The notes below the pieces were generated by a model. That model saw nothing but the letters and a program-made list of their open reading frames with translations, ran no database searches and had not been told where the DNA came from. Positions 1 through 34,620 of a stretch of DNA of 64,000 bases are shown here, one piece after another. Source of the stretch: Ptychomitrium polyphyllum (taxonomy: Eukaryota); contig OZ316776.1 of the NCBI GenBank assembly GCA_973851085.1, positions 14,198,001 through 14,262,000 on the forward strand, read 5' to 3'. Made by a program: the position numbers and the translations under genes. The stretch's first letter is position 1, and each line of letters begins with the position of its first letter.

Positions 1-3000
1 AAAAAGGTGAGTACCAAAGCTTGTCACGCTTGTGTTGTGGATCACATTTTAGAAGGTGGATTTATGGCCAACGCTAGTAGCCTTAAGCCAAGGTCGAGTC
101 TCTTATACCTTGAGGCCCAAATAAATGGCAAAAATGTCTCATGTTTGATTGACACAGGGGCAACGCACTCCTTCATGAGTCCCAAGCTAGCAAAGGTATT
201 GGGCTTGTTCGCTCAAAAAGCTAATAAGCCCATCAACGTGCGATTTGCAAAAGGCAAACCGTACGAGACGAAGGAGGTGGTGTTGGATGTGCCCTTCAGT
301 AGTGGAACATTGGAATTGAAGGAAAATTTACACTATGTGAAATGGATGAGATAGACTTCATTTTAGGTGATACCTTTTTCGAAACTCATGTGGTGGATGT
401 GAAACAAAAGCCAGCACGGTTAGTAGTGCGCCATGGTGGGAAGGAGGCAATATTGAAGTTGACTCAAAATCCTATGGTTGCTCGAGGCAAGTTAAACTTA
501 GTCTCCTTGGAACAATTGATGAATAACCAATTTGTGGTTGTGATGCAAATGGAGCAAGAAGAGGGGAATAGGCCAAGTTCCAAGGAGGTTAGGACTACTC
601 CCAAGTGCATTCAAATTGTACTAAGTGGTTATAAGGATGTGCTCACCAATGAGCTGTACGCAGAGTTACCGCCAAGAAGAGAAGTGGATCACAAAATTGA
701 AGTGATACTGGGAACGGAGCCCCCTTCAAAGGCTCCATACCGGTTGATTCAAAACAAGCTAGATGAGTTGAAGAAGCAATTGAATGACTTGTTAGAAAGA
801 GGCTATGTTAGGCCAAGTAAGTCGCCATATGGAGCACCAGTCCTCTTTGTAGACAAAAAGGATGGCAAGCTCCGCATGTGCGTCGACTATAGAGCCTTGA
901 ATAAAGCCACCATCAAGAACAACTATCCTTTGCCTCGCATTGATGACCTCTTTGATAGATTGGCGGAAGCTAAATACTTTAGTCGGATAGACTTGAAGTC
1001 GGGCTACTATCAAATCCGCATTGCGGATGAAGACGTGCCAAAGACCGCATGCCGCACTAGGTATGGGTCCTATGAATTTTTGGTGATGCCATTCGGGTTG
1101 TGTAATGCTCCTTCATTGTTCACGACCCTCATGAATACCATCTTTTAAGAAGAGATGGATGACTTTGTCATTGTCTACATTAATGACATCTTGGTGTACT
1201 CCAAGTTGGCAGAAGAACATGCAAGGCACCTCGAAGTGGTGCTTCAAAAACTTAGGGACCACAAGCTTTATGCCAATGGAGAAAAGAGTGAATTTGCTCA
1301 ACTTGCGATTGAGTTCTTGGGCCACATAGTGACGGATGATGGAATCAAGCCGGACATAAGGAAGATAAAGGCAATTAGAGAGTGGAAACAACCTTCTACA
1401 CAAAAGGGGCTGAGATCATTTCTCGGCCTAGCAAATTATTAGAGGAGATTCATACACAATTTCTCCAAAATTACTAGACCTTTGTCCGACTTGTTGAAGA
1501 AAGGAGCTAGCCAAATATGAGATGAATTTTGTCACCAAGCTTTTAAGGAACTCAAGGACAAATTATTTCAACCGCCGGTATTGAAGTTTCTTGAGTTTGA
1601 AAAGCCTTTTGAGGTCCACAGGGATGTAAGTGACTTTGCCATTGGCGGAGTGCTCATGCAAGAAGGCATGCCAATTGCCTGTGAGAGCATGAAGTTGAAT
1701 GGGTGCCAAAAGAGGTGGCCCATGCACGAGAAAGAACTCTTTGTTGTAGTGCATTGTTTGAAAACATGGCGGCACTACTTGGGCCTACATAATACCAAAG
1801 TCTACACGGACAACGTGTCCTTGAAGTACTTTGAGTCGCAAGCACAAATGAGTGCAAAACAATTGAGGTGGCACGACACCTTGGCACTCATGAATGTGGA
1901 TTTGATCCACAAGCCGGGGCAAGACAATGTAGTGCCGGATGCTCTAAGTAGGCGGGAGGAGTTGCTAGCAAAGGGCACAACCCAAGTCCTGCGAGTAATG
2001 TACAAAGAAGAAGGCAATTTGGAAAGGAAGATAAGAGAGGGGTACATGAAGGATTCCGAAGCACAAAGGCTTCTCGGTGAGCTTAAGAAGGGTAAGAAAC
2101 TTAAGGAAATTAAGTTGGAGAAGGGATTGCTAAAGTACAAACAAGGTCGGGTGTATGTGCTTCAAGAAAAACTACGGTTGTTGGTTTTGAAAGAAGAACA
2201 TGATAGTCCCATAGCCGGCCATAGAGGGGAAAAATCCACCATAGCGGCGGTGTCAAGAAGGTACTATTGGTCGGGCATGAAAGCGGACATCACCGACTTT
2301 GTGAAAACTTGTGTGAAGTGCCAACTCAATAGAGCCTTTTATCAAAAGCAAGCCGGTCTACTACAACCTTTGCCAATTCCACCGAGTCCATGGCATAGCA
2401 TGTCCATGGACTTCATCACAAGTCTTCCAGAATTGCAAGGGTATGATGCCATCTTCGTGATGGTCGATCGCTTTAGCAAGTTGGCGCACATGGTGCCAAG
2501 TAGAGGAATCGAAACTGCACATGAGACCGCAAAGCTATTCCTCGATGCATGGTGGAAACATCACGGGTTGCCAAGAGTGATTGTGTCGGACCGAGATCCA
2601 AAATTCACTAGTGCTTTTTGGAAACATTTCTTTAGCAAAGTTGGAACCAAATTGACGTTTAACACTACCTTCCATCCTCAAACGGATGGGCAAATGGAAC
2701 AAGTGAACGGAGTCTTGAACCAATACTTGAGGAACTTTGTGAGTGCAGACTAGTGCGATTGGGTGGATTATGTGAGCCTAGCGGAGTTCAATTACAATGC
2801 GGCCAATCATTTGGCGACAAAATAGTCGCCATTTAAGGTGGTCTATGGAGTGGAGCCACTCTAGCCTGCCGACTTAGCTCTTGAAGGATTTTCATTCAAC
2901 ACTAGAATTTAACCAAGATGGTGAGAATTTGGCCAAAACGCGGGAATAAATGTTAGAGAAGACCAAGCTTTTGTTGGAAAAGGCACAAAAGCGGTACAAG

Positions 3001-3492
3001 AAACAAGTCAATGCCGGAAGACGTGAAGTGGAGTATGAAGTAGGCCAAAAGGTGTTGTTGAATGTCAAGAACTTTAACTTGCCCGAAGGCCTCACTCCAA
3101 AGTTCATGTCTAAGTTTACGGGGCCGTTTTCTATTGTGGAGCGGGTATTTAAAGATGTGTACAAGTTGGAGCTACCATTTGAAATCGAAGTGCACCCAAC
3201 ATTTCATGTCTCACTCCTTAAGCCATTCAAAAAAGATACCTTGTGGCCCAATCGCAAACAAGTGATTTGGCCACTGCCGGAATTGGTGGACAACCACTTG
3301 GAATACGAAGTAGAAGGAATTCTCAAGTGTAGGCACCACAAGAAAATAGGAAAAGAATATTTGGTGAAGTGGAGAAGGTACTATGAAAAGGAAGCAACTT
3401 GGGTAGCGGCCAAGGACTTGGGAAATGCCAATGAAGTGGTGGAACCTTTTGAAAGGGATAGGAACTCCAACAAAAGACAACGTCGGCATTGA
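1..3492 (+). mobile_element. Ty3/gypsy chromovirus (family A) pol: protease-RT-RNase H-integrase-chromodomain, defective; 5' part lies outside the window
   Basis: LIDTGATHSF protease, [30 protein letters not shown], RNase H, integrase H-H-C-C plus SMDFIT/SDRD core, GPF and YEVEGIL..YLVKW chromodomain; several stops and frameshifts (e.g. 1146, 1440, 2751). Confidence 0.95.
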
Positions 3493-5457: not shown

Positions 5458-8400
5458 AGGAGGTATTTCTTGTCTTGCTTGTCACTTTTATACAAATTCC
5501 TATATTTGTCAAAGGAATGAAGCAACATATTTTGCTTATTGTTCTTTGTCCACTGATTCAACTGGTCCTTGCAAGAAACGCTGATGACCATCAGCCAAGA
5601 CTTTTGTTGTTGAAATGTCCCATTCCAAGATCTGATCTTGATTAAGTCCTTCAAAACATCCTCCAAACAAGATGTTGGATCCTCCAGGAGTGACTCTTCC
5701 AATTTCTAACAAGATGACTAGAGCGCAAGCATCTAAATCAAGACTGGAATGTGAAGGGCAACTAGCCAATACTTTTGTATGAGGTCGTACTTGACATTGG
5801 AACATCCTTCGTGTATCTTGGCTTAGATCCTCCGTTATCGAAGGCTGAAAAAGTTGAGTTGGCTCAACAAATGCTGTTGTTGATGAAGGCATGGCCGACT
5901 GCACTTCACGCATATCAGTGATAACACGAAGATTTGACATCCTAGCTAGGATCTAGAAATGATTTATCTTGGAAATAATGTTGCATACAAATAGAGGTTT
6001 CGGATACCTCTCCCCTCTTCTTATACTTGGCTATGAAGGAAAAACTTCTTTGTGAAGCTAACGGCTGCTGATGACACATCATCACAGACCTGGTTTCTGA
6101 AGATATCTTTGATGAAATTCGCGTACATTCTTGGATGCATTTGTTACATTTGTTGAAGGTTCCCATGTTTGGTCATTGATGCCATATTCTTGCCAATGTA
6201 TAAAATACTCCACACGTCCATTCTTCATGCGTGGATCTAAGATCTCTTCCATTCATATTCAATCTCATTATTGATTTTCAGCGGAGGAGGCGGAGGAACA
6301 ACTCTCTCTGGTATACATGATTTGTTACAGGCTTCCAACAACAATATGTGGAATACTGGATGAATTTGCATGCTTGGTGGTAGCTTTAGGCAATAACTAA
6401 CCGGATTTATCTGTTTGCTGATTTCAAACGGTCGCAACCGTTGATAGTCCAACTTCTTTGATGGTCTTTTTGTCTGTATATTTTGTCGTAGGAGCCATAC
6501 GCTATCTCCAACCTTGAAATTTGGATGGTCCTTTTGATGGCAATCTGCATAAGTTTTGTAACGATCTTAAGCTTGTTGTAACTGGAAGGTAATTTCTTGA
6601 TGGATTTTAGCAAGTTGAATTGCAAAATCCTTTGCAGTAGCACTTCCAACATGCTTCACTTGAAATGGATTTGTTCGATGATGATGGCCATATTGTGCAA
6701 AGAACGGACTTTGAATTGTTGAAAAATGCACCATATTGTTGTAAGCAAATTCTGCCAAGGGCAAGAGATCCATCCAGCTGTCTTGCTGGTAGTTTATGCT
6801 ACAACAAAGGTACCGCTCCAAAATTTGATTTACACGTTCGGTTTGGCCATCAGTTTGTGGATGGTGTGTTGAAGAAAGGTTGATCTTTACACGCAACAGC
6901 TGGAATAGAGCCCTCCAAAAGTTGGAAATGAACTGCGGGCCTCGATCGGATACAATATCATTTGGTAGTCCATGTATGCGGTAGACGTGATTTAAGAACA
7001 ACTTGGCAGTTTCTTCTCCCGTTACCGTCTTGTTGCATGGAATGAAATGTGCCATTTTGGTAAATCGATCCACCACTACCAAAATAGAATCCTTAGAATC
7101 AGAGTTTGAAAGGTCCGTGATAAAATCCATTGACAAAGACAACCATGGGCCCTTTGGCACTGGAAGCGGATGGAAGAGACCATGAGGTTGGTATCTTGGT
7201 ACCTTGGCTCTTGCACAAGTGTCGCATGATCGAACAAAGTCCTTTACGTACTTCCACATTTGTGGCCACCAATAGTCTCTTGCAATCAACTCCATTGTTT
7301 TATTGAATCCAAAATGTCCTATTGCTGGAAAATCATGACGTGCTTGAAGGATCTTCAACCGCAAAGGGCCTGGAGGTAGGTACAAAAGTCCTTTATACTA
7401 AAATAGGCCCTCTTGGAATTCAAAGTCTTCATCGCTATTTGAAGGATCTCCATTGTCTTTGAAGCGCTTTCTTATATTTGAAACAAAGATATCATTCTTC
7501 AAAGCCTTCCAAATTTCATCAAGATGGAATGTTGTCGTAATAGTTGTTTCTTTTAATTGGAGATTCTTTGGCTTCAATAAAATAGTCCTTTGTTGATCCA
7601 AAACATCATCTCCAGATTGAAGAGCTAAATAAGATCTTCGAGATAAGGCATCTGGCTCACCTTATAGGCTATCAGGTCAATAGGTAATGACAAAGTCAAA
7701 TCTGGAAAGCGGCATACTCCACATTGCTTGACGGCGATTCAAAACATGCACATTCATGAAAAATTCAAAGTTCTTGTGGTTTATATATATTATGGTGGTA
7801 TGTTGAGTTCTTTCCAATAAGTGTCGCCATTCTTCAAACGCATCTACAATTGCAAGTAGTTGTTTATCATAGATATCATAGTTGATTTCTATTGCTGAGA
7901 ACTTTTTTGAACAAAAGGCAAGAGGGTGAAGTCTACCGTCGTCATCATATTATGAGAATATTGAGCCAAGCGCAAAATCTGAAGCATTCGCTTCCAAATA
8001 CAAAGGCTTTGATGGATTTGGATGAATAAGGATTGGAGCCAACATGAATGACTTTTTAAGACTTTGAAATGTTTTTTCCGCCTTTTCATTTCAAATGAAT
8101 TTTTGCTTCCTTGTAAGACGTGTTAATAGTGCCGCAATCTTGGAGTAATCCTTGATGAATATCCTGTAGAAGTTTGCAAATTCCAAGAAGCATTGAACAT
8201 CTTGAATTGATCTTGGCATACTCCACTCCATGACAATACTTATTTTTATTTTATCCATATGGATTCCTCCTTTGAAAATGATGTAGCATAAAAAATTCAA
8301 CCAAGGATTCATGGAATAGGCACTTTTCCAATTTGGCATATAATCCTCGCTGGCATAGTTTTCCTAAGACCAGTCGCACATGACGTTCGTGGTCTTGTTC

Positions 8401-11400
8401 ATCCTTTGAATGTATCAAAATGTCATCCAAGTAGATGACTATAAAATTGTCCAAATGTTCATGGAAGATATCATTCATCATATGTTGGAAGACCGCGGGG
8501 GCATTTGTAAGGCCAAAAGGCATGACATTGTATTCAAAATGACCATACCAAGATCGAAAAGCTGGCTTCCATTCGTCTCCTTCTTTGATGTGTACAAGAT
8601 CGTAGGCTCCTCTAAGATCAATTTTGGTGAATATCTTTGCTTGGCCAAGTTGTTGTAGGAGTCCAAAGATTAATGGTAATGGATAGCGATTCTTTTTTGT
8701 TACTTTGTTGAGGCCTCGATAGTCCACGCACATACGTAATGATCCATCTTTCTTCTTTACAAATAGAATGGGTGCTCCAACAGGTGATTTAGAGTGTTGA
8801 ATGAAACCCTTTCCAAGGTTTTCATCAATATATTCTCTCAAGGCAGTCAACTCGGTATGTGATATGCTATAAATAGGTCCAAAAGGTGGTTGCAACTCAA
8901 TGGTATAATTGTAAGGCCGGTGCTTTGGTAACATGTCTGCATTCTTCTTCTAAAAAACGTCTTTATAATCTTGATATTGATGAGGTTTATTTTTATTAGA
9001 CTCCATTGTTGAGCTGTACATTGGCGTGGCATAAATGGCATAGATTGGTTCATCCTTTGCCGCTCTCATGAATGCCTTAGCTCCAATAAATGATGGTCCA
9101 AGATTTCTCGTATCTTGACGTCTTTTCCTTGAGACCACACTTCGTGAGCGCCAGTTAATGTCTAGATTATGTAATTCAAACCAAGGAAGGCCCAAAACAA
9201 TAGGATTCATTCGGCATTGAATGATGTTGAAGACAATCTTAGATGCCTGGTCTCCTAAAACAACCTCCAAGAGTTGAGTTTCTTTAATAACGTTGCCAGA
9301 CGCAAGAGATCGTCCATCAATAACTTCAACAGGTGCGGGGTATTTTTTCTTCACAAGCACCATGTGATGTTTGGTTGGAAAATCCTTGTCCATAAAACAT
9401 GCCATTGCACCAGTGTCTAAGTGAGCGTCACTAATTATTTCATCATCTAACAATTCTATTTTGATAGGAAATGTAAAACAAGAAGTAGGATTTGCCTCGT
9501 TTTTCAACTCCACCATTGTGCTTTGAGCCTTAAACGCAGATCCTTTAATTTGACAATTGTGCACTTTATGTCCAGACTTGCCACAATACAAGTATAGGTT
9601 TTCTCTTCAACGCCTTTCTTTTTCTTCTGGAGTCAAACGTCTTAACAAGGCAACATCAATTTGCATAGGTTCTGGTCCTTGTGGTCAGCTTTCCAATATT
9701 CTTGACGAAGTGGTAGACATGCTTTGATGTACTGGTCGCCATCCCAAGCGTTGTTCTTGGCGCCTCTCAAATAATCTATTGTTGCATACTATTGCTTGAG
9801 TGATGAATTCGTCCAATGTTTCAACTGTTTACATTGTGAGTAGCAAGTCCTACACATTCTCTCTTAAGCCCCATCGGAATTGTGTGACCAAGGCCTTATC
9901 ATTCCAATCAAGGTCGCAAGCTAATTGTCGAAACTCTGCAGCATATGTAGCAGCTGAGCGCTGTCCTTGTTGGAGACTCTGGATCCTTGTTTCAGCCACC
10001 CTCTCTCGATCAGTGTCTCCAAAAGCAGATGTCAATGCTTCTATAAAAGCACCTAAGTTGTTCAATAATGGTGACTACTTCTCCATTAGGGGTGCAAACC
10101 ACGTTAGTACATTGTTTGATAAAAGAGTGGCCACAAATCCCACTTGAGTTGTGCCATCAGGATAGTGAGATTGATGCAAACTAAGGAAGAGCCTTACTTG
10201 TTGAACAAAGCCTTTTAATTTTGATCTTGATCCATCGAACTTGTCCGGCATGCAAATCTTTGGCTCTGCATGGGTTTGACGTAAGCCTTCTCTTCCAATA
10301 TTGGCTTCTCGCAATCAAACAACCTCTTGATATAAGCTTTGAATATCACCATTGGATACTTCAACTTACTGAGTGTGTTGCTCCAAATTGTTGATGGTGT
10401 TGAAGCGGGCGAGTTCTATTTGAACTGTATTTAATAACTCTTGAAGGTCTGCAATAGTTGCAAACCTATTCTCTGATGTTCCAGGCACGTTATCCATTTT
10501 TTAAGACTCTCAAAGACAGAAAGATAATGAGTACCTTCAAAGGAGGGCAGTGCACATCCTTTGAAAGAACTAGTACCTAATTCTAGAAGAAGAAACCAAT
10601 TCTATGGTGCCAGCTTAGAAGAGGGTAATCCGCAACCTCCAAGACGGTATGGAATCCTAAAGAAGATGGATAATCCACAATCTTCTTCAAAGAACCTTAG
10701 CTCTGACAAAGATGAAGAGTAGTCTTGCCAAACTATTAAAGACACAAGAAACAAGAAGCAGAAACGATGTGTTTCCCAAGAATTAGCTTCCAAAGAGCTA
10801 ATGATTAACAAGAACTTGATACAAAGACTAGAACAAGGCAGGATTCAAAATGATCCACAACTTGTGTTGGCAAGACTAAAGAATACCTTGTCTTGCTTCC
10901 TATTTATACTATGACGGTTGTATCTCCTAGGATATTTCTAAAGAAGCTTCCTACAAGGCTTAAGAATGTTCTGGAAGTCTAGAGAACCTTCCGAAGAAGT
11001 TTCCTAAGATGTTGGAACCTTCCTAAAAAGCTTCCAAGGAGTTGGAACCTTTGTTGGAAGTTTCCTAAGGTAGTGGAACTTTTTTAGAAAGTTTCTTAAA
11101 AAGATGGAACCTTCCTAGGATGTTTTCAAAAACGATGGAAGCTTTCTAGGAAGTTTCCAAAGATGATAGTACTTTGCTATGAAGTTTTCTAAAGTGATGG
11201 AATCTTCGTAGGAAGTTTCCCACAAAGTTACTGAAGGTGATATAACTTTCCTAGAGAGTTTCCTAAGGTGGAGGAACTTTCCTAGGAAGCTTTCTAAGGT
11301 GGAAGAACTTCCGTAGGAAGCTTCTTAAGAACATAGAAAAGACTATGGAGACATCTAAAAGTATTCTAAGAATTTGTTATGGTATACTAGAAGGTTTTAG

Positions 11401-16032: not shown

Positions 16033-19000
16033 ATGACGATGTCGCCTGCGGCGCAGTGGCTGCAACAGGCTTTACTGGATCAATGCTCTGATTATAATGC
16101 AGCGCTTCAACTTAAGCCAGAGGTCGTGAGTAGTCTAGTATCCTATTGTGAAATTGCATCTACATCAGAAGCGCAACAATATCTTTACGTGAGCTACTTC
16201 TCAGTTCTTTTTGAAGCCCTGTATTTTGTTGTTGACAAGGTTATTCGGGGTGATTGATTTGCAGAATCTTTTTGATGAATATGAATGGCTTAAACATATA
16301 TTTGGACACTTCCGACGTCTGGTTGCTCGGGACTTTTGATGCTTACGAACCTGGCCAACGTTCTGGATTAATACTTATTGATTTTTGAGGCTTACTGATT
16401 GGCTTTGCTTGCAGAGCATAGTTGGTGAGGAACAATGTAAGGATATTGTAAGCGAGTATTTGCGAAGAAGAGGCGATGGTGGACCTAGTGATGTATTCAC
16501 TTTTCAGGACCGGGAAGTAAAGTCTCAAGGGGAAGCCGGTTTGCATGCTTATGTGAAGTCTAAGGAAGATGAGATCTGGTCAGCAGGATGCAAGAAGACA
16601 TCCAAAACTGTGAAGCAGAAAACGGAGGCTCAAGGAAGTGCGCCTGCTAGCACACAAGGTGGATTGCGTCACTCTAGCGTTTCTTAATGTGGTTATCTGT
16701 ACTTAATGGTTAAGGCACTCTGCAAGCTCTACGCACTTGCTTCATCCTCAATTGCTCGTGCGCTGCTGGTCTTTTTGTTTGTGATGAAGCGAAGAGGTTT
16801 GGCTTCCATGTGCTGTGTTTTATGTTTTCTGACTCTATGTTGGTATGAGTTTTATTCAGGTTCAAGTTCTTTTTATCTTAGAAGAATGTGTTTGATGTTG
16901 TGGCAGTGGCAGCTACAAAATCAGCAGTGTCACATATAATTAAACCAAGCAAATTCAAGGGACGCAAAGGAGGGAAGGGTATCTCATTAGCAGAGGCAGC
17001 TGAAGGCTTAGCTTTGTTTCCAAGGGGAGGTGCTTGCAACTGCCAAGCAAGCCGGCACAAACTTATCAACAACTGCCTTGGGTGTGGCAAGATTGTTTGT
17101 GAGCAAGAAGGAGAGGGACCCTGCAATTTCTGTGGCTCACTAGTTTTGAAGGAGGGTAGCGATTATGCAGGTCTAGAAGGTATAAGTATGCCCCCCGCAA
17201 ATGACGCCGAGGCAGCTGCTCAGGCGTTCAAGGATCGCTTAGTGGAGTTCGATCGTTCAGCTGCTCAGCGCACTACAGTCATTGATGATCAAAGTGATTA
17301 CTTTGAGATCGACGGAAATGCATGGCTCTCTGACAAGGTGTGTACATGAAGATTCTTGTCTATATACACTTGATAACATGAACTCTAGTATAAGCTGCTG
17401 ATGCTTATGGAGCTCCATATACAGTATTTTTCTAATAGATGGTATCTTTTTGAACGGTGCTATGCATTCATTTATTTAAACCAATTTGTGTGCTACAAAT
17501 CTCGTCCTGTTTTCGGACATGATTTGTTATTAAAATCAATATGTACTTTGGCAAACTAGTATTTGAGACTGATATTCTCTGTCAACCACCTCGACTTGGT
17601 AGCATTTCAAGGTATACTAATTCAAGAATTGTTCATGTTATCAGGAAAAGCAGTTGCTGCGACAGCGGCAGGAAGAGGAGGAGCGTATTGAAGCGGAGAG
17701 AAGAAAACGTGTCATTGTAACCATTGATCTTCTTGGTCGTAAGGTATTCCGAGGATGTTACTACAATTCGTTGCCTATTGTGGTCACATGATTTTGAGTT
17801 CTACACATTTCAAGCATTCTTTCTTCATTTCTTTAAAGTTTGTCTTTTTTCCCTCTGGAAAGTTCTCAAAATGTATCCATGAGTGCTATTTTCAGATTGT
17901 GACCCTACTTTCATCTTATCTAGATGTCGTACATGTAGGCTCAAATGCTTGTTCATCTCAAATGTACAGAACGTATATTAGTGAATTTCTTAGGACATTG
18001 TTTATTTGGCCTCGCTCCCATGCTCAAGTGGGCCATATAGCTCAGGTTTTGATACTGATTCTAGTGTTGGAGGATATGTTTGACGTAATGTGTTTTAATT
18101 ATATGTGTTGTTCTGTGGTAGGTTGTGATGGAAGATAAAGGAGATGGCAAAGACAATGCTCATCATGAGAACCTTATTCTGGCAGGGGATAGTGGAACTT
18201 CTGATCACCGTATAATACGTAACCCATTTATTGACAATATTCCCGTTTATGTGGGTCCAAATGGACCAACAGGTGCTAAAAATACCAACAAGCTTATCAA
18301 CCATCTTCAGGGGATGGTTCTCGACAGGACAGGACGCGTTCAGCACGATGACCCTGTCATTGAAGCTGTCATAGGTCAACAACTGGGTGACACTCATATT
18401 GAAGGTGAAACCACCAGTTCAAAAGGATGGGTTGGACCCAGAGTCAGAGGAACAGGAAGCTCAATGGATAATGATGAAGCAGAGTGCACGTTGGCTAATC
18501 CGTCTGCAAGTACTAGTGGATCACGAGACGATGATAGTAGGCTGGGGAGAAGTGCTGGAAAGAAACATCATGCTGAAGCTGTAAATGACTCAACAACTTC
18601 AAAGCCATTTGATATTTGTCTTCCAAATACTCCACGAAGTGATGGAAAGACAGCAATCGTGCTAGCACCCTCCCTTTTGGATCAAAAGAGAGCAGAGCAT
18701 GCACTCCCGTCTATATGGAGTGACACAGTTTTGATGCCGGGAATGGTTTTGTTGAAAGGGTGGCTGTCTATAGATGATCAGGTACTTCATTTGCAGTTTT
18801 ATTCTTTTATCTTTAGGCTGTACATCCCCTCCTTTTTATTTTTCTTATATGGAATTCGTACTTATTTTCGTTTTAATGTGCCTTGTGTTAGGTGGACATT
18901 GTGAGAGAATGCCGGTCACTTGGTACAGATGTTGGGGGCTTTTATCAACCCACATTTGGAGATGGAAGGCACATGCGCTTGCAAATGATGTGTCTTGGGA

Positions 19001-19670
19001 AACAACACTGGGACCCTACCACCAATTCCTATGTTCCTCGCTGCAAAAATTATGACAATGCCAGTCCACCTGCTATTCCTAGTAAGTTTTCTGACATGGT
19101 GAGGCGTTCGCTTCAGAGAGCCCAAGACCTGGCCTTGAAAGCAGGTGATCAGCTGGGTGGAAGGCAAGTTGAAGGAGAACTGCTAAACATGGACCCCACC
19201 GTGTGCATCGTCAACTTTTATGAGCAAGGCGGTGCACTCGGGATGCATCAGGTAAAAAATTTGACCACCGAGTATTTATCATCTAAAGCACATATTATGC
19301 AGATTCCTTTTGAAGCATGCATTGAGCTTTACATACTCATTGTCGAGAACTGGTTGGAAGCTTATCGTGCTTTGGCATTGGCTTATTTCACTAGGATAAG
19401 GATGAGAGCTCAGCAAGCCTGAAGCGAGGGTCTCCCGTGGTATCATTTTCAGTCGGTGACCTTGCAGTGTTTACTTATGGTAATGAAAGGGACCCAGAGA
19501 AGGCAGAAAAGATTGCACTCGAGTCTGGGGATGTGCTCGTCTTTGGCGGACCTGCACGAATGATCTTCCATGGGGTAGCATCTATTCTCCCAAAATCTGC
19601 GCCAAAGGAGCTCATTGAGAAATCCAATTTGAGACAAGGGCGGTTGAATCTGACATTTAGGGAGCTGTAG
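16033..19670 (+). CDS. ASC-1/TRIP4 (zf-C2HC5) - AlkB (ALKBH1-like 2OG-Fe(II) dioxygenase) fusion protein, ~741 aa; exons 16033-16188, 16415-16658, 16907-17337, 17645-17743, 18122-18781, 18892-19251, 19395-19670
   Basis: All six introns are GT-AG and phase-compatible. CNCQASRHKLINNCLGCGKIVCEQEGEGPCNFCG zinc finger, RLVEFDR..AQRTTVIDDQSDYF, VTIDLLGRK and GRVQHD are TRIP4-type motifs; PFDIC, PGMVLLK, QMMCLG, CIVNFY, HQD, FHG and RLNLTFR are AlkB motifs. Confidence 0.9.
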
Positions 19671-20560: not shown

Positions 20561-22873
20561 ATCACCAGCTGCCTTGAGTTGCTACGCTTGTGGGGACCAA
20601 TACTTGTATGTTGGGAAGGTACTCACTAAGCATGAACAAACTAAGATTCACCCAAAAAGGAAAACTACCTTACATTATATAAATTTTAAATTTTAATACT
20701 AAAAAAGTTGTGATGAAGTCCAACTGCACATGTACTGCAGTGGTATTGAGAGAAACTACAGTGGACAACCTTTGAGGTTCCCGCCTAATGCGAGTGAAAT
20801 CTCCCGCAAGTTATGATGACAAGGACTTGAAGCCTCAAGTTCTTGATGCAGAGGTCTTCAAATTTGAGCTGGCCGCTCGAAGCCTACGATCAAAGTTCGC
20901 CTCAAGGAACAGTTTACAGGATAATTTTGCCCAAGCCGTTGTTAAAGACGTGAACAAAGTGAAACGAGGATGGATTTCTACCAAATTTCACAATGAGGAA
21001 GCTCAGTACCTTGTGGCCCGTGGATCGATGTGCTTTTTTCAGTTGTTTAGTTCAAGCACGTTAATGGAGCGAGAGTCTGGAGGTATTTGTGCCTAAGTAG
21101 ATGATCTGGAGAGGGTTCTGGAAATTGTCCCCTTCCACCTGAATCTTTTCACGCACACAGAACTTTACCAGAAACCAGCTGCTCTGTTCATTCCCACGGC
21201 TTCCGGGTTTTGTTTTTTGTTTTTAAAAAAAAGACTTCTATAGGTGATTCTACATTTGTTTTAAGATAATAAAATAAGAAGATTTCCTAAAAAGAAGGCC
21301 CTGCAATCCATGGCAGGAAAAACACTTTGATATATTTGTATCCATCAATTACTTTGATAATTTGGTCAAAGTATTCATTGAATGTGTACATGAAATCCAA
21401 ATCATATAGAATTTTGCCCTTACATTCAATAATGACAAAATTAATTAATTATTTTCAATTAGGACTTATTATCTTTGTAGTGGAATTTGCTATGCATAGA
21501 AAATGCATCACTAATATTCTTCACATTTCTAAGCTTACTCTTGCATAGAAGTGTCTTGAAAATCATCATGGCTTTCAAAAATGAAAACTTTTCCTTTATG
21601 TATAATTTAACTCCATTCCAAAATATCTAAAACTTCAAGTAAACATGCTTCTATAACCTTGGCTAGTAAAACTGGACTTTGATAGTAGATGCTTAATAAC
21701 ATTATTTTGAATCTCAATCCAGTTTGCCTTAATGGTCTTCTTCCATTAATCCTTGTAACTACTTTAAATCAATGAAAATTCATTTTAATATGTTGTTTAT
21801 CACATTTTTGTTTATAACATGATGGTTCTACTTACATGAAGTATTTGGTTGAATAAAGGATGATCAATAGGACACCATTCTACAAATAAATCATGCTGGT
21901 TCATATGATTATAGATGTGGATCATCCTTTTAGACCTTTTGAACCTTGTGAGCCTTATTAGCCCTCTTTCCTCCCTAATTGGAAGTGTAACAAATCTCAC
22001 ACAAGTCTAATTGAGGATGTCTAATATGAAATTTGTGCTCTAGTCCAATTTAAGTATGTCATAATTCATTCCAAATTCAATTTGATGCAATAAGATCCTT
22101 TCAGGACTACACATGCGTTATGGAATGTATTACAGTTGGTTGGTGATCTTGAGGGGCTGGAATTGGGTGCCACCTTCTCCAAAGGCTCCACCACTTACAT
22201 TCTAATCCAAAATAGTTAGCCACTTGATTGAACCAATGGCGATGGTAATGGTGTGTCAGCGAAGCAACACAATGGCAAAGTAGTGCGACGCAGCGGAGTA
22301 GCACGATGCAGCAGAGTACCGCCTTTCCCATGTTAGAATTTGAGGGGCCCATTTCTAATGTTCCTCAAATTTCCCTCCATGGTCCCCGCTCTCAGCATTA
22401 TTGCCGCTGAGATGTAGAAATAGAGATTGAATCTTCGAGGATGGTATGTCCATGCACCCCTGCAGATGATAAGGTCCCCAAAGCGGTAACACCACGGTTC
22501 CCCTCCTATGACCGTGCTAAGGTTCACGTCGGCGGTGAAGCAACCAACTCCACTCGACGGTTCCGAACGGAACGCCCCACCTTCCACGCTTTCCTTCGCA
22601 GATTGCATCTAGTCCCAAAGCCATTACTTCACCCAAAACCTTCACAGGCTAACATTCTCCTCCAGCTTTGATTGAAAATCTAGACAATCCGGAGGAATTC
22701 GTGCCTATTTCGTCTTGAGGGATGCCGATGTCTTGAATGCATTCAAGCTCTCTGGTCTTGCAGTTCAAGCTTGGAAGCACACTCTAGGGTTTCAAGCCTT
22801 ACTTCTCCGAACTGAGTTTCTCTTGTGCATATTAAGTTTGCTGGGTTTTAATCTGGTGGTGGGGGTGGGGTTG

Positions 22874-22906
22874 GGTGTGTGTGTGTGTGTGTGTATGTGT
22901 GTGTGT
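22874..22906. repeat. (GT)n microsatellite just upstream of the PSST start codon, probably in a 5'-UTR intron
   Basis: gtgtgtgtgtgtgtgtgtgtatgtgtgtgtg followed by a T-rich tract and AG before the ATG at 22926. Confidence 0.85.
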
Positions 22907-22925
22907 TTTTGTTTTGCTGCAAGCT

Positions 22926-24203
22926 ATGGCGTTGCTACCGAGAGCTGCGCAAGCTGCGTCTCGGGACGCGATGAGGAGGGTGCACACCAGCGCGCCTGCG
23001 CTGATGACAGCGTCGACGACGCTGAATGCGCCGACGTCGAGCACGACATCTAAGGGAGGACCGGGGGCGGAATTCGTCTTGTCCAAGGTGGATGCGCTCA
23101 TGAATTGGGCGCGGACCGGGTCAATCTGGCCCATGACGTTCGGGCTGGCTTGTTGTGCTGTGGAGATGATGCATACTGGCGCTGCGCGCTACGACTTGGA
23201 TAGGTTTGGGATCATCTTCCGGCCTAGCCCCAGACAGTCCGATTGTATGATTGTGGCGGGGACGCTCACCAACAAAATGGCTCCTGCTTTGCGCAAGTAA
23301 GTTGTTTTGGCGATCTTTTGTTTTGTAGCATTTTAAAGTGTATGAGCTTCGGCTTTGGTGGATCTTTTGGTTTTGGGTTATTTTTCGGGTACTTTAGTTT
23401 TTCCTATGTGAGAGTGAGCACTGACCCTCTCCTCCAGCAAGTTTTTAGGGTTTGGAATCCGAAAGTCTTGTATATCCTCAATTTTTTATTATAGTGATGG
23501 CTCATTTTGGTCTCTACGCCAGCACTATATTAGCAAAACTTTCTTCTGAGCTCTACTTATCGAGGAATCTAGAAAACATAGCAGAACGTACTTAATTGTT
23601 GTTGTTTGCGAATTGCAATTACGAGGTACAGTGGAGTTTCAAAAGTTGTTCTTTCAAGTTTTCGGGAGAGTTTTCGAGTTTTAGTGTTCTCACGTCTCAA
23701 TTAATTAGAAATCAACGCTTCATGTGAGCTTCTCCGTTAGTATCTCAGATAACTTCTACCGACTTGATTTGAGGTAGATGATTTATGATACTGACCGGAA
23801 GCCAGCTTGAGGTTATATCTTTCGTCTTCTGAGATAGCAATTATCCTGGTGTGGGTAGTACTTGCTGTAGACCTGACCTAATTAACCTCCATGGTTCTCT
23901 GTAATCTTAGGGATTCGTAATGCTGAGTGAGGGTATATTTTACAAGAAATGCGGTGCTTGGGGTTCAGGGTTTATGATCAGATGCCAGAGCCAAGGTGGG
24001 TAGTTTCTATGGGCAGCTGTGCTAATGGAGGAGGCTATTACCACTACTCCTACTCAGTGGTGCGAGGTTGCGATCGTATTGTGCCTGTGGATATATACGT
24101 CCCTGGATGCCCTCCCACCGCTGAAGCTCTCCTATACGGTTTGCTTCAGTTGCAGAAGAAGATCAACCGGCGCAAGGACGTGACATTGTGGTGGAACAAG
24201 TAA
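22926..24203 (+). CDS. NDUFS7: Mitochondrial complex I Fe-S subunit PSST (20 kDa), ~201 aa; exons 22926-23296 and 23969-24203
   Basis: [35 protein letters not shown] and YVPGCPP motifs; N-terminal Ala/Arg/Ser/Thr-rich presequence; phase-2 intron AA|GTAAGT...TTCAG|G. Confidence 0.96.
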
Positions 24204-26969: not shown

Positions 26970-29900
26970 AGTTAAGAATAAAAGAAACAAGAAGTAGAAC
27001 CGAAGTGTTTCCCAAGAATTAGCTTCCAAGGAGCTAATGATTAACAAGAACTTGATATAAAAACTAGAACAAGGCAGGATTCAAGATGATCCACAACTTG
27101 TGTTGGCAAGACTAAGGAATACCTTGTCTTGCCTCCTATTTATACTATGACGTTTGTATCTCCTAGGATACTTCTAAAGAAGCTTCCTATAAGGCTTAAG
27201 AATTTCTGGAAGTCTAGAGAACCTTCCCAAGAAGTTTCCTAAGACGTTGGAACCTTCTTTAGAAGTTTCCTAAGGTAGCGAAACCTTCTCAAGAAGTTTC
27301 TTAAAGAGGTAGATCCTTCTTAAGAAATTTCCTAAGGTCATGGAATCTTCCCATGAAGTTTTCTAAGATGATTGAATCTTTGTAGGAAGGTTCCTAAGAA
27401 GTTACTTCAAATGATGGAGCCTTCCTATGAAGTTTCCTAAGGTGATGGAATCTTCGTAGGAAGGTTCCTAAGAAGTTACCTTAAATGATAGAATCTTCCT
27501 AGGAAGTTCTCTAAGGTGGAAGAACTTTCCTAGGAAGCTTCTTAAAAACATGGAAAAGATGTGGAGACATTTAAAAGTATTCTAAGAAGCTATTATAATA
27601 TACTAGAAGGTTCTAGAATATTCTAAGGACTATGTTGCATAACCTATGTTCGTGACATCACCTCCCCATTTAACGACTTCCATAAAGAGCTCGTTTCTTG
27701 GCTTGCTTGTTACATTTCTACAAATTCCAAAATTCGTCAAAGGAGTGAAGCAACATATTTTGCTTATTGTTCTTTGTCCACTGATTCAACTGGTCCTTGC
27801 AAGAAACGCTGATGACCATCAGCCAAGACTTTTGTTGTTGAAATGTCCCATTCCAAGATCTGATCTTGATTAAGTCCTTCAAAACATCCTCCAAACAAGA
27901 TGTTGGGTCCTCCAGGAGTGACTCTTCCAATTTCTAACAAGATGACTAGAGCGCAAGCATCTAAATCAAGACTGGAATGTGAAGGGCAACTAGCCAATAC
28001 TTTTGTATGAGGTCGTACTTGACATTGGAACATCCTTCGTGTATCTTGGCTTAGATCCTCCGTTATCGAAGGCTGAAAAAGTTGAGTTGGCTCAACAAAT
28101 GCTGTTGTTGATGAAGGCATGGCCGACTGCACTTCACGCATATCAGTGATAACACGAAGATTTGACATCCTAGCTAGGATCTAGAAATGATTTATCTTGG
28201 AAATAATGTTGCATACAAATAGAGGTTTCGGATACCTCTCCCCTCTTCTTATACTTGGCTATGAAGGAAAAACTTCTTTGTGAAGCTAACGGCTGCTGAT
28301 GACACATCATCACAGACCTGGTTTCTGAAGATATCTTTGATGAAATTCGCGTACATTCTTGGATGCATTTGTTACATTTGTTGAAGGTTCCCATGTTTGG
28401 TCATTGATGCCATATTCTTGCCAATGTATAAAATACTCCACACGTCCATTCTTCATGCGTGGATCTAAGATCTCTTCCATTCATATTCAATCTCATTATT
28501 GATTTTCAGCGGAGGAGGCGGAGGAACAACTCTCTCTGGTATACATGATTTGTTACAGGCTTCCAACAACAATATGTGGAATACTGGATGAATTTGCATG
28601 CTTGGTGGTAGCTTTAGGCAATAACTAACCGGATTTATCTGTTTGCTGATTTCAAACGGTCGCAACCGTTGATAGTCCAACTTCTTTGATGGTCTTTTTG
28701 TCTGTATATTTTGTCGTAGGAGCCATACGCTATCTCCAACCTTGAAATTTGGATGGTCCTTTTGATGGCAATCTGCATAAGTTTTGTAACGATCTTAAGC
28801 TTGTTGTAACTGGAAGGTAATTTCTTGATGGATTTTAGCAAGTTGAATTGCAAAATCCTTTGCAGTAGCACTTCCAACATGCTTCACTTGAAATGGATTT
28901 GTTCGATGATGATGGCCATATTGTGCAAAGAACGGACTTTGAATTGTTGAAAAATGCACCATATTGTTGTAAGCAAATTCTGCCAAGGGCAAGAGATCCA
29001 TCCAGCTGTCTTGCTGGTAGTTTATGCTACAACAAAGGTACCGCTCCAAAATTTGATTTACACGTTCGGTTTGGCCATCAGTTTGTGGATGGTGTGTTGA
29101 AGAAAGGTTGATCTTTACACGCAACAGCTGGAATAGAGCCCTCCAAAAGTTGGAAATGAACTGCGGGCCTCGATCGGATACAATATCATTTGGTAGTCCA
29201 TGTATGCGGTAGACGTGATTTAAGAACAACTTGGCAGTTTCTTCTCCCGTTACCGTCTTGTTGCATGGAATGAAATGTGCCATTTTGGTAAATCGATCCA
29301 CCACTACCAAAATAGAATCCTTAGAATCAGAGTTTGAAAGGTCCGTGATAAAATCCATTGACAAAGACAACCATGGGCCCTTTGGCACTGGAAGCGGATG
29401 GAAGAGACCATGAGGTTGGTATCTTGGTACCTTGGCTCTTGCACAAGTGTCGCATGATCGAACAAAGTCCTTTACGTACTTCCACATTTGTGGCCACCAA
29501 TAGTCTCTTGCAATCAACTCCATTGTTTTATTGAATCCAAAATGTCCTATTGCTGGAAAATCATGACGTGCTTGAAGGATCTTCAACCGCAAAGGGCCTG
29601 GAGGTAGGTACAAAAGTCCTTTATACTAAAATAGGCCCTCTTGGAATTCAAAGTCTTCATCGCTATTTGAAGGATCTCCATTGTCTTTGAAGCGCTTTCT
29701 TATATTTGAAACAAAGATATCATTCTTCAAAGCCTTCCAAATTTCATCAAGATGGAATGTTGTCGTAATAGTTGTTTCTTTTAATTGGAGATTCTTTGGC
29801 TTCAATAAAATAGTCCTTTGTTGATCCAAAACATCATCTCCAGATTGAAGAGCTAAATAAGATCTTCGAGATAAGGCATCTGGCTCACCTTATAGGCTAT

Positions 29901-32900
29901 CAGGTCAATAGGTAATGACAAAGTCAAATCTGGAAAGCGGCATACTCCACATTGCTTGACGGCGATTCAAAACATGCACATTCATGAAAAATTCAAAGTT
30001 CTTGTGGTTTATATATATTATGGTGGTATGTTGAGTTCTTTCCAATAAGTGTCGCCATTCTTCAAACGCATCTACAATTGCAAGTAGTTGTTTATCATAG
30101 ATATCATAGTTGATTTCTATTGCTGAGAACTTTTTTGAACAAAAGGCAAGAGGGTGAAGTCTACCGTCGTCATCATATTATGAGAATATTGAGCCAAGCG
30201 CAAAATCTGAAGCATTCGCTTCCAAATACAAAGGCTTTGATGGATTTGGATGAATAAGGATTGGAGCCAACATGAATGACTTTTTAAGACTTTGAAATGT
30301 TTTTTCCGCCTTTTCATTTCAAATGAATTTTTGCTTCCTTGTAAGACGTGTTAATAGTGCCGCAATCTTGGAGTAATCCTTGATGAATATCCTGTAGAAG
30401 TTTGCAAATTCCAAGAAGCATTGAACATCTTGAATTGATCTTGGCATACTCCACTCCATGACAATACTTATTTTTATTTTATCCATATGGATTCCTCCTT
30501 TGAAAATGATGTAGCATAAAAAATTCAACCAAGGATTCATGGAATAGGCACTTTTCCAATTTGGCATATAATCCTCGCTGGCATAGTTTTCCTAAGACCA
30601 GTCGCACATGACGTTCGTGGTCTTGTTCATCCTTTGAATGTATCAAAATGTCATCCAAGTAGATGACTATAAAATTGTCCAAATGTTCATGGAAGATATC
30701 ATTCATCATATGTTGGAAGACCGCGGGGGCATTTGTAAGGCCAAAAGGCATGACATTGTATTCAAAATGACCATACCAAGATCGAAAAGCTGGCTTCCAT
30801 TCGTCTCCTTCTTTGATGTGTACAAGATCGTAGGCTCCTCTAAGATCAATTTTGGTGAATATCTTTGCTTGGCCAAGTTGTTGTAGGAGTCCAAAGATTA
30901 ATGGTAATGGATAGCGATTCTTTTTTGTTACTTTGTTGAGGCCTCGATAGTCCACGCACATACGTAATGATCCATCTTTCTTCTTTACAAATAGAATGGG
31001 TGCTCCAACAGGTGATTTAGAGTGTTGAATGAAACCCTTTCCAAGGTTTTCATCAATATATTCTCTCAAGGCAGTCAACTCGGTATGTGATATGCTATAA
31101 ATAGGTCCAAAAGGTGGTTGCAACTCAATGGTATAATTGTAAGGCCGGTGCTTTGGTAACATGTCTGCATTCTTCTTCTAAAAAACGTCTTTATAATCTT
31201 GATATTGATGAGGTTTATTTTTATTAGACTCCATTGTTGAGCTGTACATTGGCGTGGCATAAATGGCATAGATTGGTTCATCCTTTGCCGCTCTCATGAA
31301 TGCCTTAGCTCCAATAAATGATGGTCCAAGATTTCTCGTATCTTGACGTCTTTTCCTTGAGACCACACTTCGTGAGCGCCAGTTAATGTCTAGATTATGT
31401 AATTCAAACCAAGGAAGGCCCAAAACAATAGGATTCATTCGGCATTGAATGATGTTGAAGACAATCTTAGATGCCTGGTCTCCTAAAACAACCTCCAAGA
31501 GTTGAGTTTCTTTAATAACGTTGCCAGACGCAAGAGATCGTCCATCAATAACTTCAACAGGTGCGGGGTATTTTTTCTTCACAAGCACCATGTGATGTTT
31601 GGTTGGAAAATCCTTATCCATAAAACATGCCATTGCACCAGTGTCTAAGTGAGCGTCACTAATTATTTCATCATCTAACAATTCTATTTTGATAGGAAAT
31701 GTAAAACAAGAAGTAGGATTTGCCTCGTTTTTCAACTCCACCATTGTGCTTTGAGCCTTAAACGCAGATCCTTTAATTTGACAATTGTGCACTTTATGTC
31801 CAGACTTGCCACAATACAAGTATAGGTTTTCTCTTCAACGCCTTTCTTTTTCTTCTGGAGTCAAACGTCTTAACAAGGCAACATCAATTTGCATAGGTTC
31901 TGGTCCTTGTGGTCAGCTTTCCAATATTCTTGACGAAGTGGTAGACATGCTTTGATGTACTGGTCGCCATCCCAAGCGTTGTTCTTGGCGCCTCTCAAAT
32001 AATCTATTGTTGCATACTATTGCTTGAGTGATGAATTCGTCCAATGTTTCAACTGTTTACATTGTGAGTAGCAAGTCCTACACATTCTCTCTTAAGCCCC
32101 ATCGGAATTGTGTGACCAAGGCCTTATCATTCCAATCAAGGTCGCAAGCTAATTGTCGAAACTCTGCAGCATATGTAGCAGCTGAGCGCTGTCCTTGTTG
32201 GAGACTCTGGATCCTTGTTTCAGCCACCCTCTCTCGATCAGTGTCTCCAAAAGCAGATGTCAATGCTTCTATAAAAGCACCTAAGTTGTTCAATAATGGT
32301 GACTACTTCTCCATTAGGGGTGCAAACCACGTTAGTACATTGTTTGATAAAAGAGTGGCCACAAATCCCACTTGAGTTGTGCCATCAGGATAGTGAGATT
32401 GATGCAAACTAAGGAAGAGCCTTACTTGTTAAACAAAGCCTTTTAATTTTGATCTTGATCCATCGAACTTGTCCGGCATGCAAATCTTTGGCTCTGCATG
32501 GGTTTGACGTAAGCCTTCTCTTCCAATATTGGCTTCTCGCAATCAAACAACCTCTTGATATAAGCTTTGAATATCACCATTGGATACTTCAACTTACTGA
32601 GTGTGTTGCTCCAAATTGTTGATGGTGTTGAAGCGGGCGAGTTCTATTTGAACTGTATTTAATAACTCTTGAAGGTCTGCAATAGTTGCAAACCTATTCT
32701 CTGATGTTCCAGGCACGTTATCCATTTTTTAAGACTCTCAAAGACAGAAAGATAATGAGTACCTTCAAAGGAGGGCAGTGCACATCCTTTGAAAGAACTA
32801 GTACCTAATTCTAGAAGAAGAAACCAATTCTATGGTGCCAGCTTAGAAGAGGGTAATCCGCAACCTCCAAGACGGTATGGAATCCTAAAGAAGATGGATA

Positions 32901-33606: not shown

Positions 33607-34620
33607 CATGGTTGCGTTTTGTATATAGTTATATGACTAAGCAAATGAAATCTTAAAGTTTCATTTAAAAGACTCAAATATCATGTTATTGCTACCTATT
33701 TACATGTAACGATTTAAAAAAGATCAACCTTCTAAAAAGATTACAAGAGCTATGTAAAGCTATTTGAAGGCTTTTAAATATTTTTAGAAGGTACTAAAGT
33801 TTGTCGAAGCTACCTAAGCCTTCTAGCCATTATAGTTATAAAATGGCATGTTTACAACTTGTATATACAAAAGAAATAATATTAGATTTAGTTCTTAAAA
33901 TAATATCAAATTCCACTATTCATTCATTATTGATTCATTTAATAATGGAAAAGCTCAATAGAAGATATTTCCATATAATTTTAATGTAATGCCATGTATT
34001 AAATTTTTATGATTCATCTTTAGTGTTGCTAAGTATTCTTGGCATAATTTATACAATTGCAACGATGTTTATAAGAAAGATTTTAAATCTTCAAGATTGT
34101 TGAAATCTAAGTATTCATACCATTCCCGTTGAGAGTTCTCCAGTGTAAAGAAAATCTTCCAAAAGAATCATGAGTAGTAGAAAATTTTAAGAGCTTTGGC
34201 TATTGAAAACTTGTCACACACTGTTTCCTTGAAACAAAAATTCTCAACGTTGGTGAGGAATCATTCACAACCTTTCCTTTCTTATACTTCTCTTTTGAAC
34301 CAACATCATCATTGATCCTTGAAAGCAAAACAGCCACTAAGTTGGGTGCCTCAACAGATCATTTCAGCCTACTACTGTAGGTGGGTAATTATTAGTTTGT
34401 CCAAACAGCACTACTTCTTGAAACCTAAAACGTCTTGGTCCATCCGCAAGGTTTTGGATTCTTCTTTTCAGTGCATTATGGGTGAAGTTGATTATTCCTA
34501 AGCTGCAATTGTAAGTGACGACTGAAGTTGTTTGCTAAGAAGTTCAAGGAGTGAGTTCGTGGACCCGTATCGGTTTACTTCTCATTTGTGATTGTTTGGT
34601 TTAGTTGAAGGTGCAGCAAG

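What the first reader, a model, noticed from the sequence alone, without database searches (positions are those of the whole stretch)
16033..19670. Rosetta-stone fusion: ASC-1/TRIP4 (Rqt4-like) zinc-finger protein joined in frame to a complete AlkB dioxygenase
Seen: the last TRIP4-type motifs (VVM..., RIIRNPF, TGRVQHD) and the first AlkB motifs (PFDIC, PGMVLLKGWLS) sit in one stop-free 660-nt exon (18122-18781), joined by a Ser/Gly/Asp-rich linker. The fusion therefore does not depend on a guessed splice junction. The AlkB part keeps the HxD (HQD, across the last intron), the distal H (FHG) and RxNxTxR. Known: TRIP4/ASC-1 is a subunit of the ASCC complex (ASCC1/2/3); human ASCC3 helicase works with the AlkB enzyme ALKBH3 in alkylation repair, and TRIP4/Rqt4 also acts in ribosome quality control. 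Animal TRIP4 ends in an ASCH domain and, as I recall, the angiosperm homologue ends soon after GRVQHD. Inference: this lineage has tethered an ALKBH1-clade demethylase to the ASCC/RQT helicase complex, possibly coupling unwinding or ribosome splitting to repair of alkylated DNA, mRNA or tRNA. I do not know of a description of this architecture, but cannot search.
Basis: partly seen in the sequence, partly recalled or inferred. Interest (0 to 1): 0.92.

Follow-up and report, generated by a model that had tools for sequence, protein, structure and literature searches.

The report
Ribosome-rescue factor fused to repair enzyme
This moss gene joins a homologue of TRIP4 (in animals and yeast part of the helicase complex that rescues stalled ribosomes) to an AlkB-family enzyme; the same fusion occurs in liverworts, ferns, Ginkgo, algae and some protists, was likely split in flowering plants, and likely carries a methyl-removing enzyme to freshly unwound RNA or DNA.

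Summary
The fusion is real: seven GT-AG exons give a 741-aa protein, and the junction lies inside the stop-free exon 5. An intron-less contig from another moss-like organism carries the whole reading frame.

It is not a quirk of this lineage. Named fused orthologues occur in mosses, liverworts, a lycophyte, ferns, Ginkgo and Prasinococcus. A haptophyte and an alveolate carry it with the ASCH domain still in place. None of 79 named flowering-plant TRIP4 hits has AlkB. Trees of both halves nest the free flowering-plant-type genes inside the fused ones (AU p=0.013), so the split is likely the derived state.

The AlkB half is the rice OsALKBH1 type, closer to bacterial AlkB than to human ALKBH1. 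All eight zinc ligands of the ASCC3-docking finger and the Fe/2OG residues are kept.

Likely mechanism (untested): TRIP4 docks on the ASCC3 helicase and tethers the demethylase near the single-strand exit. In humans TRIP4 and ALKBH3 exclude each other on ASCC3, so the fusion would reverse that logic.

In print I found only a one-line domain label (Ginkgo) and a passing mention of ASCH-AlkB fusions. Verdict: a new variant of known parts, with no functional data.

The parts
16033..19670 (+). TRIP4-AlkB fusion gene, 7 coding exons, 741 aa
   Evidence: Gene model translates without a stop; 88% identical to Ceratodon P0001, 77% to Physcomitrium P0005 over the full length; the junction contexts align with the intron-less ORF of L001
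16033..16474 (+). N-terminal PWI-like helical domain (res 1-72; exon 1 and start of exon 2)
   Evidence: Profile match of plant to animal TRIP4 N-termini, hhalign prob 81.7, E 1.1e-5; four helices, most blocks pLDDT 79-93, in the model of the Ceratodon orthologue
17035..17133 (+). Dual zinc finger C2HC5 (C177, C179, H184, C198; C190, C193, C206, C209), the ASCC3-docking domain in human TRIP4
   Evidence: Pfam PF06221; aligned to human TRIP4 8ALZ and yeast Rqt4 7ZPQ; human ligands and contact residues from PMC10076317
17287..17743 (+). TRIP4 third domain (res ~261-310, across intron 3)
   Evidence: PF23134 on both exon pieces; precomputed on the full-length orthologues
18122..18781 (+). Exon 5: the single stop-free exon that spans the TRIP4/AlkB junction
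   Evidence: stored proteins from other organisms cover the same span in one reading frame (P0008, P0201, P0259, P0277)
18209..18352 (+). Likely 'lasso' peptide (RIIRNPF...PVYV to GRVQHDD, res 340-387)
   Evidence: Matches the two ends of the human lasso 375-424 (LVNPN..PPQWV and LRIQD) in order and spacing; profile match weak, prob 5%, E 0.007; dN/dS about 0.11 against L001
18467..18493 (+). DD.EC.L motif (res ~426-434), where many free flowering-plant TRIP4 proteins end
   Evidence: Alignment; 25 of 79 named angiosperm rows end in it by a strict pattern
18497..18604 (+). Variable, predicted disordered linker (res ~436-471)
   Evidence: 23% identity to L001 but frame kept; pLDDT under 50 in the orthologue model; length varies among plants
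18605..18619 (+). PFDIC motif, N-terminal mark of this AlkB clade
   Evidence: Kept in free rice and grape members; similar F/LD(L/I)(W/Y)P motifs in protist fusions
18728..19667 (+). AlkB dioxygenase core (res 513-741; H649, D651, H709, R733, R739)
   Evidence: PF13532; orthologue model matches OsALKBH1 5XOI/5XEG at 51% identity, target TM 0.94

Best explanation
The gene encodes one protein in which a TRIP4/Rqt4 scaffold is joined to an AlkB dioxygenase with intact catalytic motifs; it likely docks on the ASCC3 helicase through its zinc finger and lasso, and so likely holds the enzyme near the helicase exit to demethylate single-stranded RNA or DNA as it is unwound. Shown: one reading frame, domain content, conserved ligands, and the spread of the fusion. 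Known from other species: human TRIP4 docks on ASCC3 by the zinc finger and its lasso positions the next domain (ASCH) at the strand exit; rice OsALKBH1 demethylates ssDNA 6mA in vitro. Inferred: a bacterial-type AlkB was added once to the C-terminus of TRIP4-ASCH in an ancestor of green plants, haptophytes and alveolates (or spread among them later); the green lineage lost ASCH; flowering plants split the gene. The likeliest substrates are alkylation lesions (m1A, m3C) on single strands, i.e. the job ALKBH3 does with ASCC3 in humans, on mRNA at collided ribosomes and on unwound DNA or R-loops. Which of these dominates is not settled.
For: Single frame. Spread: 14 of the 120 listed TRIP4 hits carry PF13532 (Ceratodon, Physcomitrium cluster, Sphagnum, two Riccia, Calypogeia, Diphasiastrum, Ceratopteris, Psilotum, five unnamed Logan contigs of 2.3-3.1 kb); 0 of 79 named angiosperm rows do. 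Prasinococcus, Digyalum and Chrysotila are fused, the last two with ASCH between the halves. 62 of 371 retrieved records hold both halves, in 36 clusters at 90% identity; 54 of 62 keep HQD. Docking surface: 8 of 8 zinc ligands and 2 of 3 tested human contact residues (L180, I190) are identical; the third (L174) is Q, as in yeast Rqt4. The zinc finger and third domain are the most constrained region (92% identity, dN/dS about 0.03 against L001). In the calls made, only fused TRIP4 clusters were named from mosses, so the moss complex would carry AlkB by default (inferred). Fission: the large AlkB-only clade (99/97) nests in land plants (100/98), next to a fused seed-plant-type row (98/96); holding all fused rows together is rejected, p-AU 0.013; the TRIP4 tree gives the same nesting. 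The Arabidopsis and Ginkgo AlkB lists contain no ALKBH3. ASCC3 is needed for m1A/m3C clearance from human mRNA (PMC8254245 abstract).
Against: No binding, activity or phenotype was tested. The linker is predicted disordered and the model has no fixed domain arrangement (pTM 0.44). The lasso match is weak. The link is dispensable: flowering plants lack it; TRIP4-ASCH without AlkB occurs in Bigelowiella, Tetrahymena and unnamed relatives of fused protists; stand-alone AlkB models from Phytophthora, Naegleria and others are listed beside the Arabidopsis genes. In a Ginkgo-like record and its relative the TRIP4 half sits on a long branch (0.96), which suggests relaxed constraint. Human TRIP4 has no role in MMS survival. 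Rice ALKBH1 acts on chromatin without any TRIP4 half. The AU hypothesis was framed after seeing the tree, on 30 rows with a simple model, and the AlkB-only clade consists of unnamed records assigned to flowering plants by position and likeness to rice.
Confidence: 0.6

Rival explanations
1. Passive fusion: the two halves are co-expressed and co-localised but work independently, possibly released by alternative starts, intron retention or cleavage of the linker.
For: Predicted disordered, poorly conserved linker. Repeated splits or losses. Annotated short isoforms: a 282-aa TRIP4-only form in Physcomitrium and a 398-aa AlkB-side form in Ceratopteris.
Against: The junction has stayed in frame from Prasinococcus and protists to Ginkgo. 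Full-length ORFs are on short intron-less contigs (L001, P0007). The two halves have functionally linked human counterparts on the same helicase.
Confidence: 0.24
2. The AlkB domain replaces ASCH mainly as a nucleic-acid-binding or chromatin-binding module that stimulates the helicase or opposes PRC2, with catalysis secondary.
For: In green plants AlkB is the first folded domain after the lasso, where ASCH stimulates human ASCC3. Rice alkbh1 has a limited effect on overall 6mA but affects H3K27me3 and PRC2 binding (PMC10469495).
Against: HQD is kept in 54 of 62 fused records, most exceptions being truncated ones. Protist fusions keep both ASCH and AlkB, so AlkB was not first a substitute.
Confidence: 0.14
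3. Two neighbouring genes merged by annotation or a chance read-through in this assembly.
For: No RNA run of this organism was available, and part of exon 5 lacks an independent read check.
Against: Single stop-free exon; full-length orthologues in 36 clusters; an intron-less 756-codon frame in L001; purifying selection across exon 5 (dN/dS about 0.11-0.43, rough because dS is near saturation).
Confidence: 0.02

Closest known systems
Human TRIP4/ASC-1 (PDB 8ALZ) and yeast Rqt4 (7ZPQ) of the ASCC/RQT complex
   Same: PWI-like N-terminus, dual zinc finger with all eight ligands, third domain, and likely the lasso.
   Different: The moss protein has no ASCH domain and ends in an AlkB dioxygenase. 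Some protist forms have both ASCH and AlkB.
Rice OsALKBH1 (LOC_Os03g60190; PDB 5XEG, 5XOI) and the plant ALKBH1B/C/D-type genes
   Same: Nearest solved structure: 51% identity, target TM 0.94; shared PFDIC motif.
   Different: Rice and grape members have an unrelated N-terminal extension and no TRIP4 half; they are likely products of the split.
Human ASCC3-ALKBH3 dealkylation module
   Same: An AlkB-family enzyme paired with the helicase that makes its single-stranded substrate (PMC10076317, PMC8254245).
   Different: ALKBH3 is a distant paralogue (about 17% identity), binds non-covalently and is excluded by TRIP4. Here the enzyme is part of TRIP4.
Ginkgo GbALKBH1B and Physcomitrium PpALKBH1B (Pp3c16_180) in PMC13296198
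   Same: The same fused gene; the paper names a zf-C2HC5 domain on the Ginkgo protein and lists both sequences.
   Different: Treated as putative m6A erasers; the word TRIP4 and any discussion of a fusion are absent from the main text.

Membership tests
TRIP4/ASC-1/Rqt4 | C2HC5 dual zinc finger with eight ligands | tested here: met
   PF06221 E 7e-13; 8 of 8 ligands align with human C171/C173/H178/C192 and C184/C187/C200/C203
TRIP4/ASC-1/Rqt4 | N-terminal PWI-like domain | tested here: met
   hhalign to animal TRIP4 N-termini prob 81.7, E 1.1e-5; Pfam TRI4_N did not hit the separate exon pieces
TRIP4/ASC-1/Rqt4 | Third domain (PF23134) | tested here: met
   Both exon pieces hit just under the cut-off; listed on the full-length orthologues
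TRIP4/ASC-1/Rqt4 | Lasso peptide | tested here: inconclusive
   Motif order and spacing fit human 375-424; profile match prob 5%, E 0.007, reversed control E 0.82
Animal-type TRIP4 | C-terminal ASCH domain | tested here: not met
   No Pfam hit in exon 5; a remnant is not significant, E 0.47. Flowering-plant TRIP4 rows lack it too
TRIP4/ASC-1/Rqt4 | Binds ASCC3/Slh1 | not testable with these tools
AlkB Fe(II)/2OG dioxygenases | HxD...H triad and RxNxTxR | tested here: met
   H649, D651, H709, R733, R739
AlkB Fe(II)/2OG dioxygenases | AlkB fold | tested here: met
   Model of the Ceratodon orthologue matches OsALKBH1 (target TM 0.94) and E. coli AlkB (0.84-0.89)
AlkB Fe(II)/2OG dioxygenases | Demethylase activity and substrate | not testable with these tools
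   Inferred from rice ALKBH1, reported active on ssDNA 6mA in vitro
Orthologues of human ALKBH1 | Closest to human ALKBH1 | tested here: not met
   E. coli AlkB scores higher than human ALKBH1 by sequence (E 2e-15 against 7e-9) and fold; Physcomitrium has a separate PpALKBH1A. Human ALKBH1 was not in my trees
ALKBH3 | Closest to human ALKBH3 | tested here: not met
   16-17% identity, rank 37 and lower in the fold search

The most novel reading that the evidence does not exclude
Across green plants, haptophytes and alveolates the ribosome-splitting RQT/ASCC complex ancestrally carries its own RNA repair enzyme: the TRIP4-tethered AlkB removes the methyl lesion from the mRNA that stalled the ribosome as ASCC3 pulls it apart, so damaged messages are repaired rather than only destroyed. 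Flowering plants cut the tether and redeployed the enzyme to chromatin and plastids.
Probability: 0.3. Interest if true: 0.88.

Novelty: new variant of a known kind. Interest (0 to 1): 0.74.

Why it matters
Whether ribosome rescue is coupled to repair of alkylated mRNA is an open model in human cells (PMC8254245), and it is awkward there because TRIP4 and ALKBH3 exclude each other on ASCC3 (PMC10076317). A natural covalent TRIP4-AlkB protein in Physcomitrium, where single domains can be edited by gene targeting (recalled), makes the coupling directly testable. It also gives an origin for the rice and Arabidopsis 'ALKBH1' demethylases studied as 6mA erasers: they are likely the freed C-terminal half of an ASCC subunit, which predicts that they may still meet ASCC3.

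Tried and rejected
No whole genome is held for this window, so gene copy number here was not checked beyond the window, where tblastn found no second copy. RNA run search: no RNA holder listed; the two runs laid were contigs with no joints. The last homologue search mostly returned relatives of the first alignment row and animal TRIP4s, so hornworts, conifers, Amborella and named charophytes were not surveyed. Idea that the DD.EC.L motif is the first strand of a lost ASCH: best alignment falls there but E 0.47, not supported. An ASCH flag on Diphasiastrum P0029 came from plant rows in my profile and was dropped by hand. Many 'AlkB-only' algal and protist rows keep lasso-like motifs and look like fragments; they were left out of the AU test. 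Rows dropped before trees: near-duplicates and records with under 170 matched AlkB columns (136 rows; 71; 30; 43). L002 (33% over 60 aa) was not followed. No complex prediction was run (no ASCC3 sequence). Earlier findings of the scan: nothing shown. Ten paper searches found no paper that describes a TRIP4-AlkB fusion; the library lacks most subscription journals, and Fig. S1a of the EOLA1 preprint, which may draw this architecture, could not be seen.
Full report
1. Observation. Seven exons with GT-AG introns give a 741-aa protein. Exon 5 (18122-18781) is open in one frame only and holds both the last TRIP4 motifs and the first AlkB motifs, so the fusion needs no guessed splice. Pfam on the exon pieces finds zf-C2HC5, TRIP4_3rd (two pieces, each just under the cut-off) and 2OG-FeII_Oxy_2. 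The protein is 88% identical to Ceratodon purpureus P0001, 77% to Physcomitrium P0005 and 59% to Sphagnum, so the window is from a moss (inferred). No RNA run of this organism was listed, and res ~387-455 lack an independent read check. L001, a 3366-nt contig 72% identical at protein level, carries the whole gene as one intron-less 756-codon frame, as a spliced transcript would. Against it every region that could be measured shows dN/dS under 0.5 (zinc finger and third domain about 0.03, lasso region 0.11, res 396-470 0.43, AlkB core 0.14); one region was saturated and all values are rough.

2. Spread. A search with the zinc-finger exon gave 430 hits, 120 listed. Fourteen of the 120 also carry the AlkB domain: the moss clusters, two Riccia, Calypogeia, Diphasiastrum, Ceratopteris, Psilotum and five unnamed contigs. 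None of the 79 rows that I listed by hand as named angiosperms does. The Ginkgo protein GbALKBH1B (665 aa) has the zinc finger (PMC13296198, passages and supplement rows). The search of 1.84 billion representatives (best 150 of 4025 listed) showed the fusion outside plants. Of 371 records held, 62 have both halves, in 36 clusters at 90% identity, and 54 of the 62 keep HQD. The fusion is patchy: animals, Bigelowiella, Tetrahymena and unnamed relatives of fused protists have TRIP4-ASCH alone, and a 2016 survey lists stand-alone AlkB models from Phytophthora and Naegleria next to the Arabidopsis genes.

3. History. In an AlkB tree with bacterial outgroups from a genome scan (80 loci kept of 583), the eukaryotic rows form one group (97/80) beside Acidobacteria-type AlkB. 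A large AlkB-only clade (99/97; 82 rows) nests inside land plants (100/98), next to a fused seed-plant-type row (98/96). Its members are unnamed; two that I checked match rice OsALKBH1 at E 1e-80 or better, and named rice and grape members are unfused. Forcing all fused rows into one clade is rejected (p-AU 0.013; hypothesis set after seeing the tree). The TRIP4 tree shows the same nesting of named angiosperm TRIP4. Many angiosperm TRIP4s end at a motif that lies inside the moss exon 5. So the flowering-plant state is likely a fission. A possible route is duplication and decay: the TRIP4 half of the Ginkgo-like record and its relative is on a long branch, and P0188 keeps only a PWI-like remnant before AlkB. 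One origin of the fusion is the simplest reading, but deep branches are poorly resolved and transfer among algae is not excluded.

4. Anatomy and mechanism. The model of the Ceratodon orthologue (the spliced window protein itself was not folded) has a helical N-terminal domain, the zinc finger, the third domain, a long low-confidence stretch and a confident AlkB domain, with no fixed arrangement (pTM 0.44). Its best fold match is OsALKBH1, then E. coli AlkB, then human ALKBH1. In the human ASCC3-TRIP4 structure the zinc finger is the docking domain, and the lasso (375-424) places ASCH by the strand exit (PMC10076317, abstract and passages). The moss keeps all eight ligands and two of three tested contact residues, and RIIRNPF and GRVQHD fit the two ends of the lasso by order and spacing, though the profile match is weak. 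The AlkB domain begins about 85 residues after the lasso. I infer that the protein docks on ASCC3 and holds the enzyme near emerging single strands (confidence 0.6). Rice ALKBH1 demethylates ssDNA 6mA in vitro and affects R-loops (PMC10469495, passages). Human ASCC3 helps clear m1A/m3C from mRNA (PMC8254245, abstract). The Arabidopsis and Ginkgo lists have no ALKBH3, so this enzyme may fill that role. Against a simple analogy, human TRIP4 excludes ALKBH3 and is not needed for MMS survival. Rivals: passive fusion (0.24), a mainly non-catalytic binding role (0.14), artefact (0.02).

5. What is known. Ten searches found no description of a TRIP4-AlkB fusion. Nearest mentions: the Ginkgo domain label; one sentence in a 2026 preprint that TRIP4-like ASCH domains are fused to, among others, an AlkB-related dioxygenase (10.64898/2026.08.01.741249, passages only; its Fig. 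S1a and supplements unseen); and Iyer et al. (PMC4738411, passages and supplement parts 55 and 57), which notes ASCH fused to FTO-clade AlkB in stramenopiles and lists a partial 253-aa Physcomitrella model as plain AlkB. Also read as passages: PMC9938168 and PMC3265494. Databases already hold the three Pfam domains on these proteins, and the ESM Atlas has a 54-member cluster with them, so the architecture is visible but unexplained. Subscription literature was not searchable.

6. Verdict. A real, ancient and apparently undiscussed domain fusion of two known families, with a specific and testable mechanism and no functional evidence yet. Novelty: new variant of a known kind. Interest 0.74; 0.88 if mRNA repair at split ribosomes is shown (probability about 0.3).

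Noticed in passing
window 17338-17349: Read-through into intron 3 gives three codons and a stop; Physcomitrium has an annotated 282-aa isoform (P0006) ending the same way, a zinc-finger-only TRIP4 without AlkB. May be simple intron retention.
   Followed up: no
P0148 (Ceratopteris), P0157: 398-aa forms that begin at the Met near the start of the exon-5 region and carry lasso plus AlkB; one is an annotated isoform. A possible route to a free AlkB.
   Followed up: partly
P0188: Unnamed 429-aa protein with a PWI-like remnant (E 2e-4) directly before AlkB and no zinc finger; falls in the seed-plant group. Looks like a decaying fusion.
   Followed up: partly
L003-L032 and others: The nearest bacterial relatives of this AlkB clade found are mostly from Acidobacteriota (Vicinamibacterales), then Actinomycetota.
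   Followed up: partly
P0224, P0304: Protist-type TRIP4-ASCH-AlkB fusions with HQG instead of HQD and a changed final motif; possibly inactive.
   Followed up: no
P0282: AlkB of a neighbouring branch with a weak RRM hit at its N-terminus.
   Followed up: no
window 1-3489 (+); 5539-10144, 27767-32372, 51949-53663 (-); 59206-61254 (-): LTR retrotransposon remains: gypsy-type RT/RNase H/integrase, with three copies whose listed ORFs begin identically, and a copia-type element.
   Followed up: no
window 22836-23297 (+) and 34609-35052 (+): Neighbouring genes: a weak NADH dehydrogenase 20 kDa subunit hit (below cut-off) and RNA polymerase Rpb4 (E 4e-26). No evident link to the finding.
   Followed up: no
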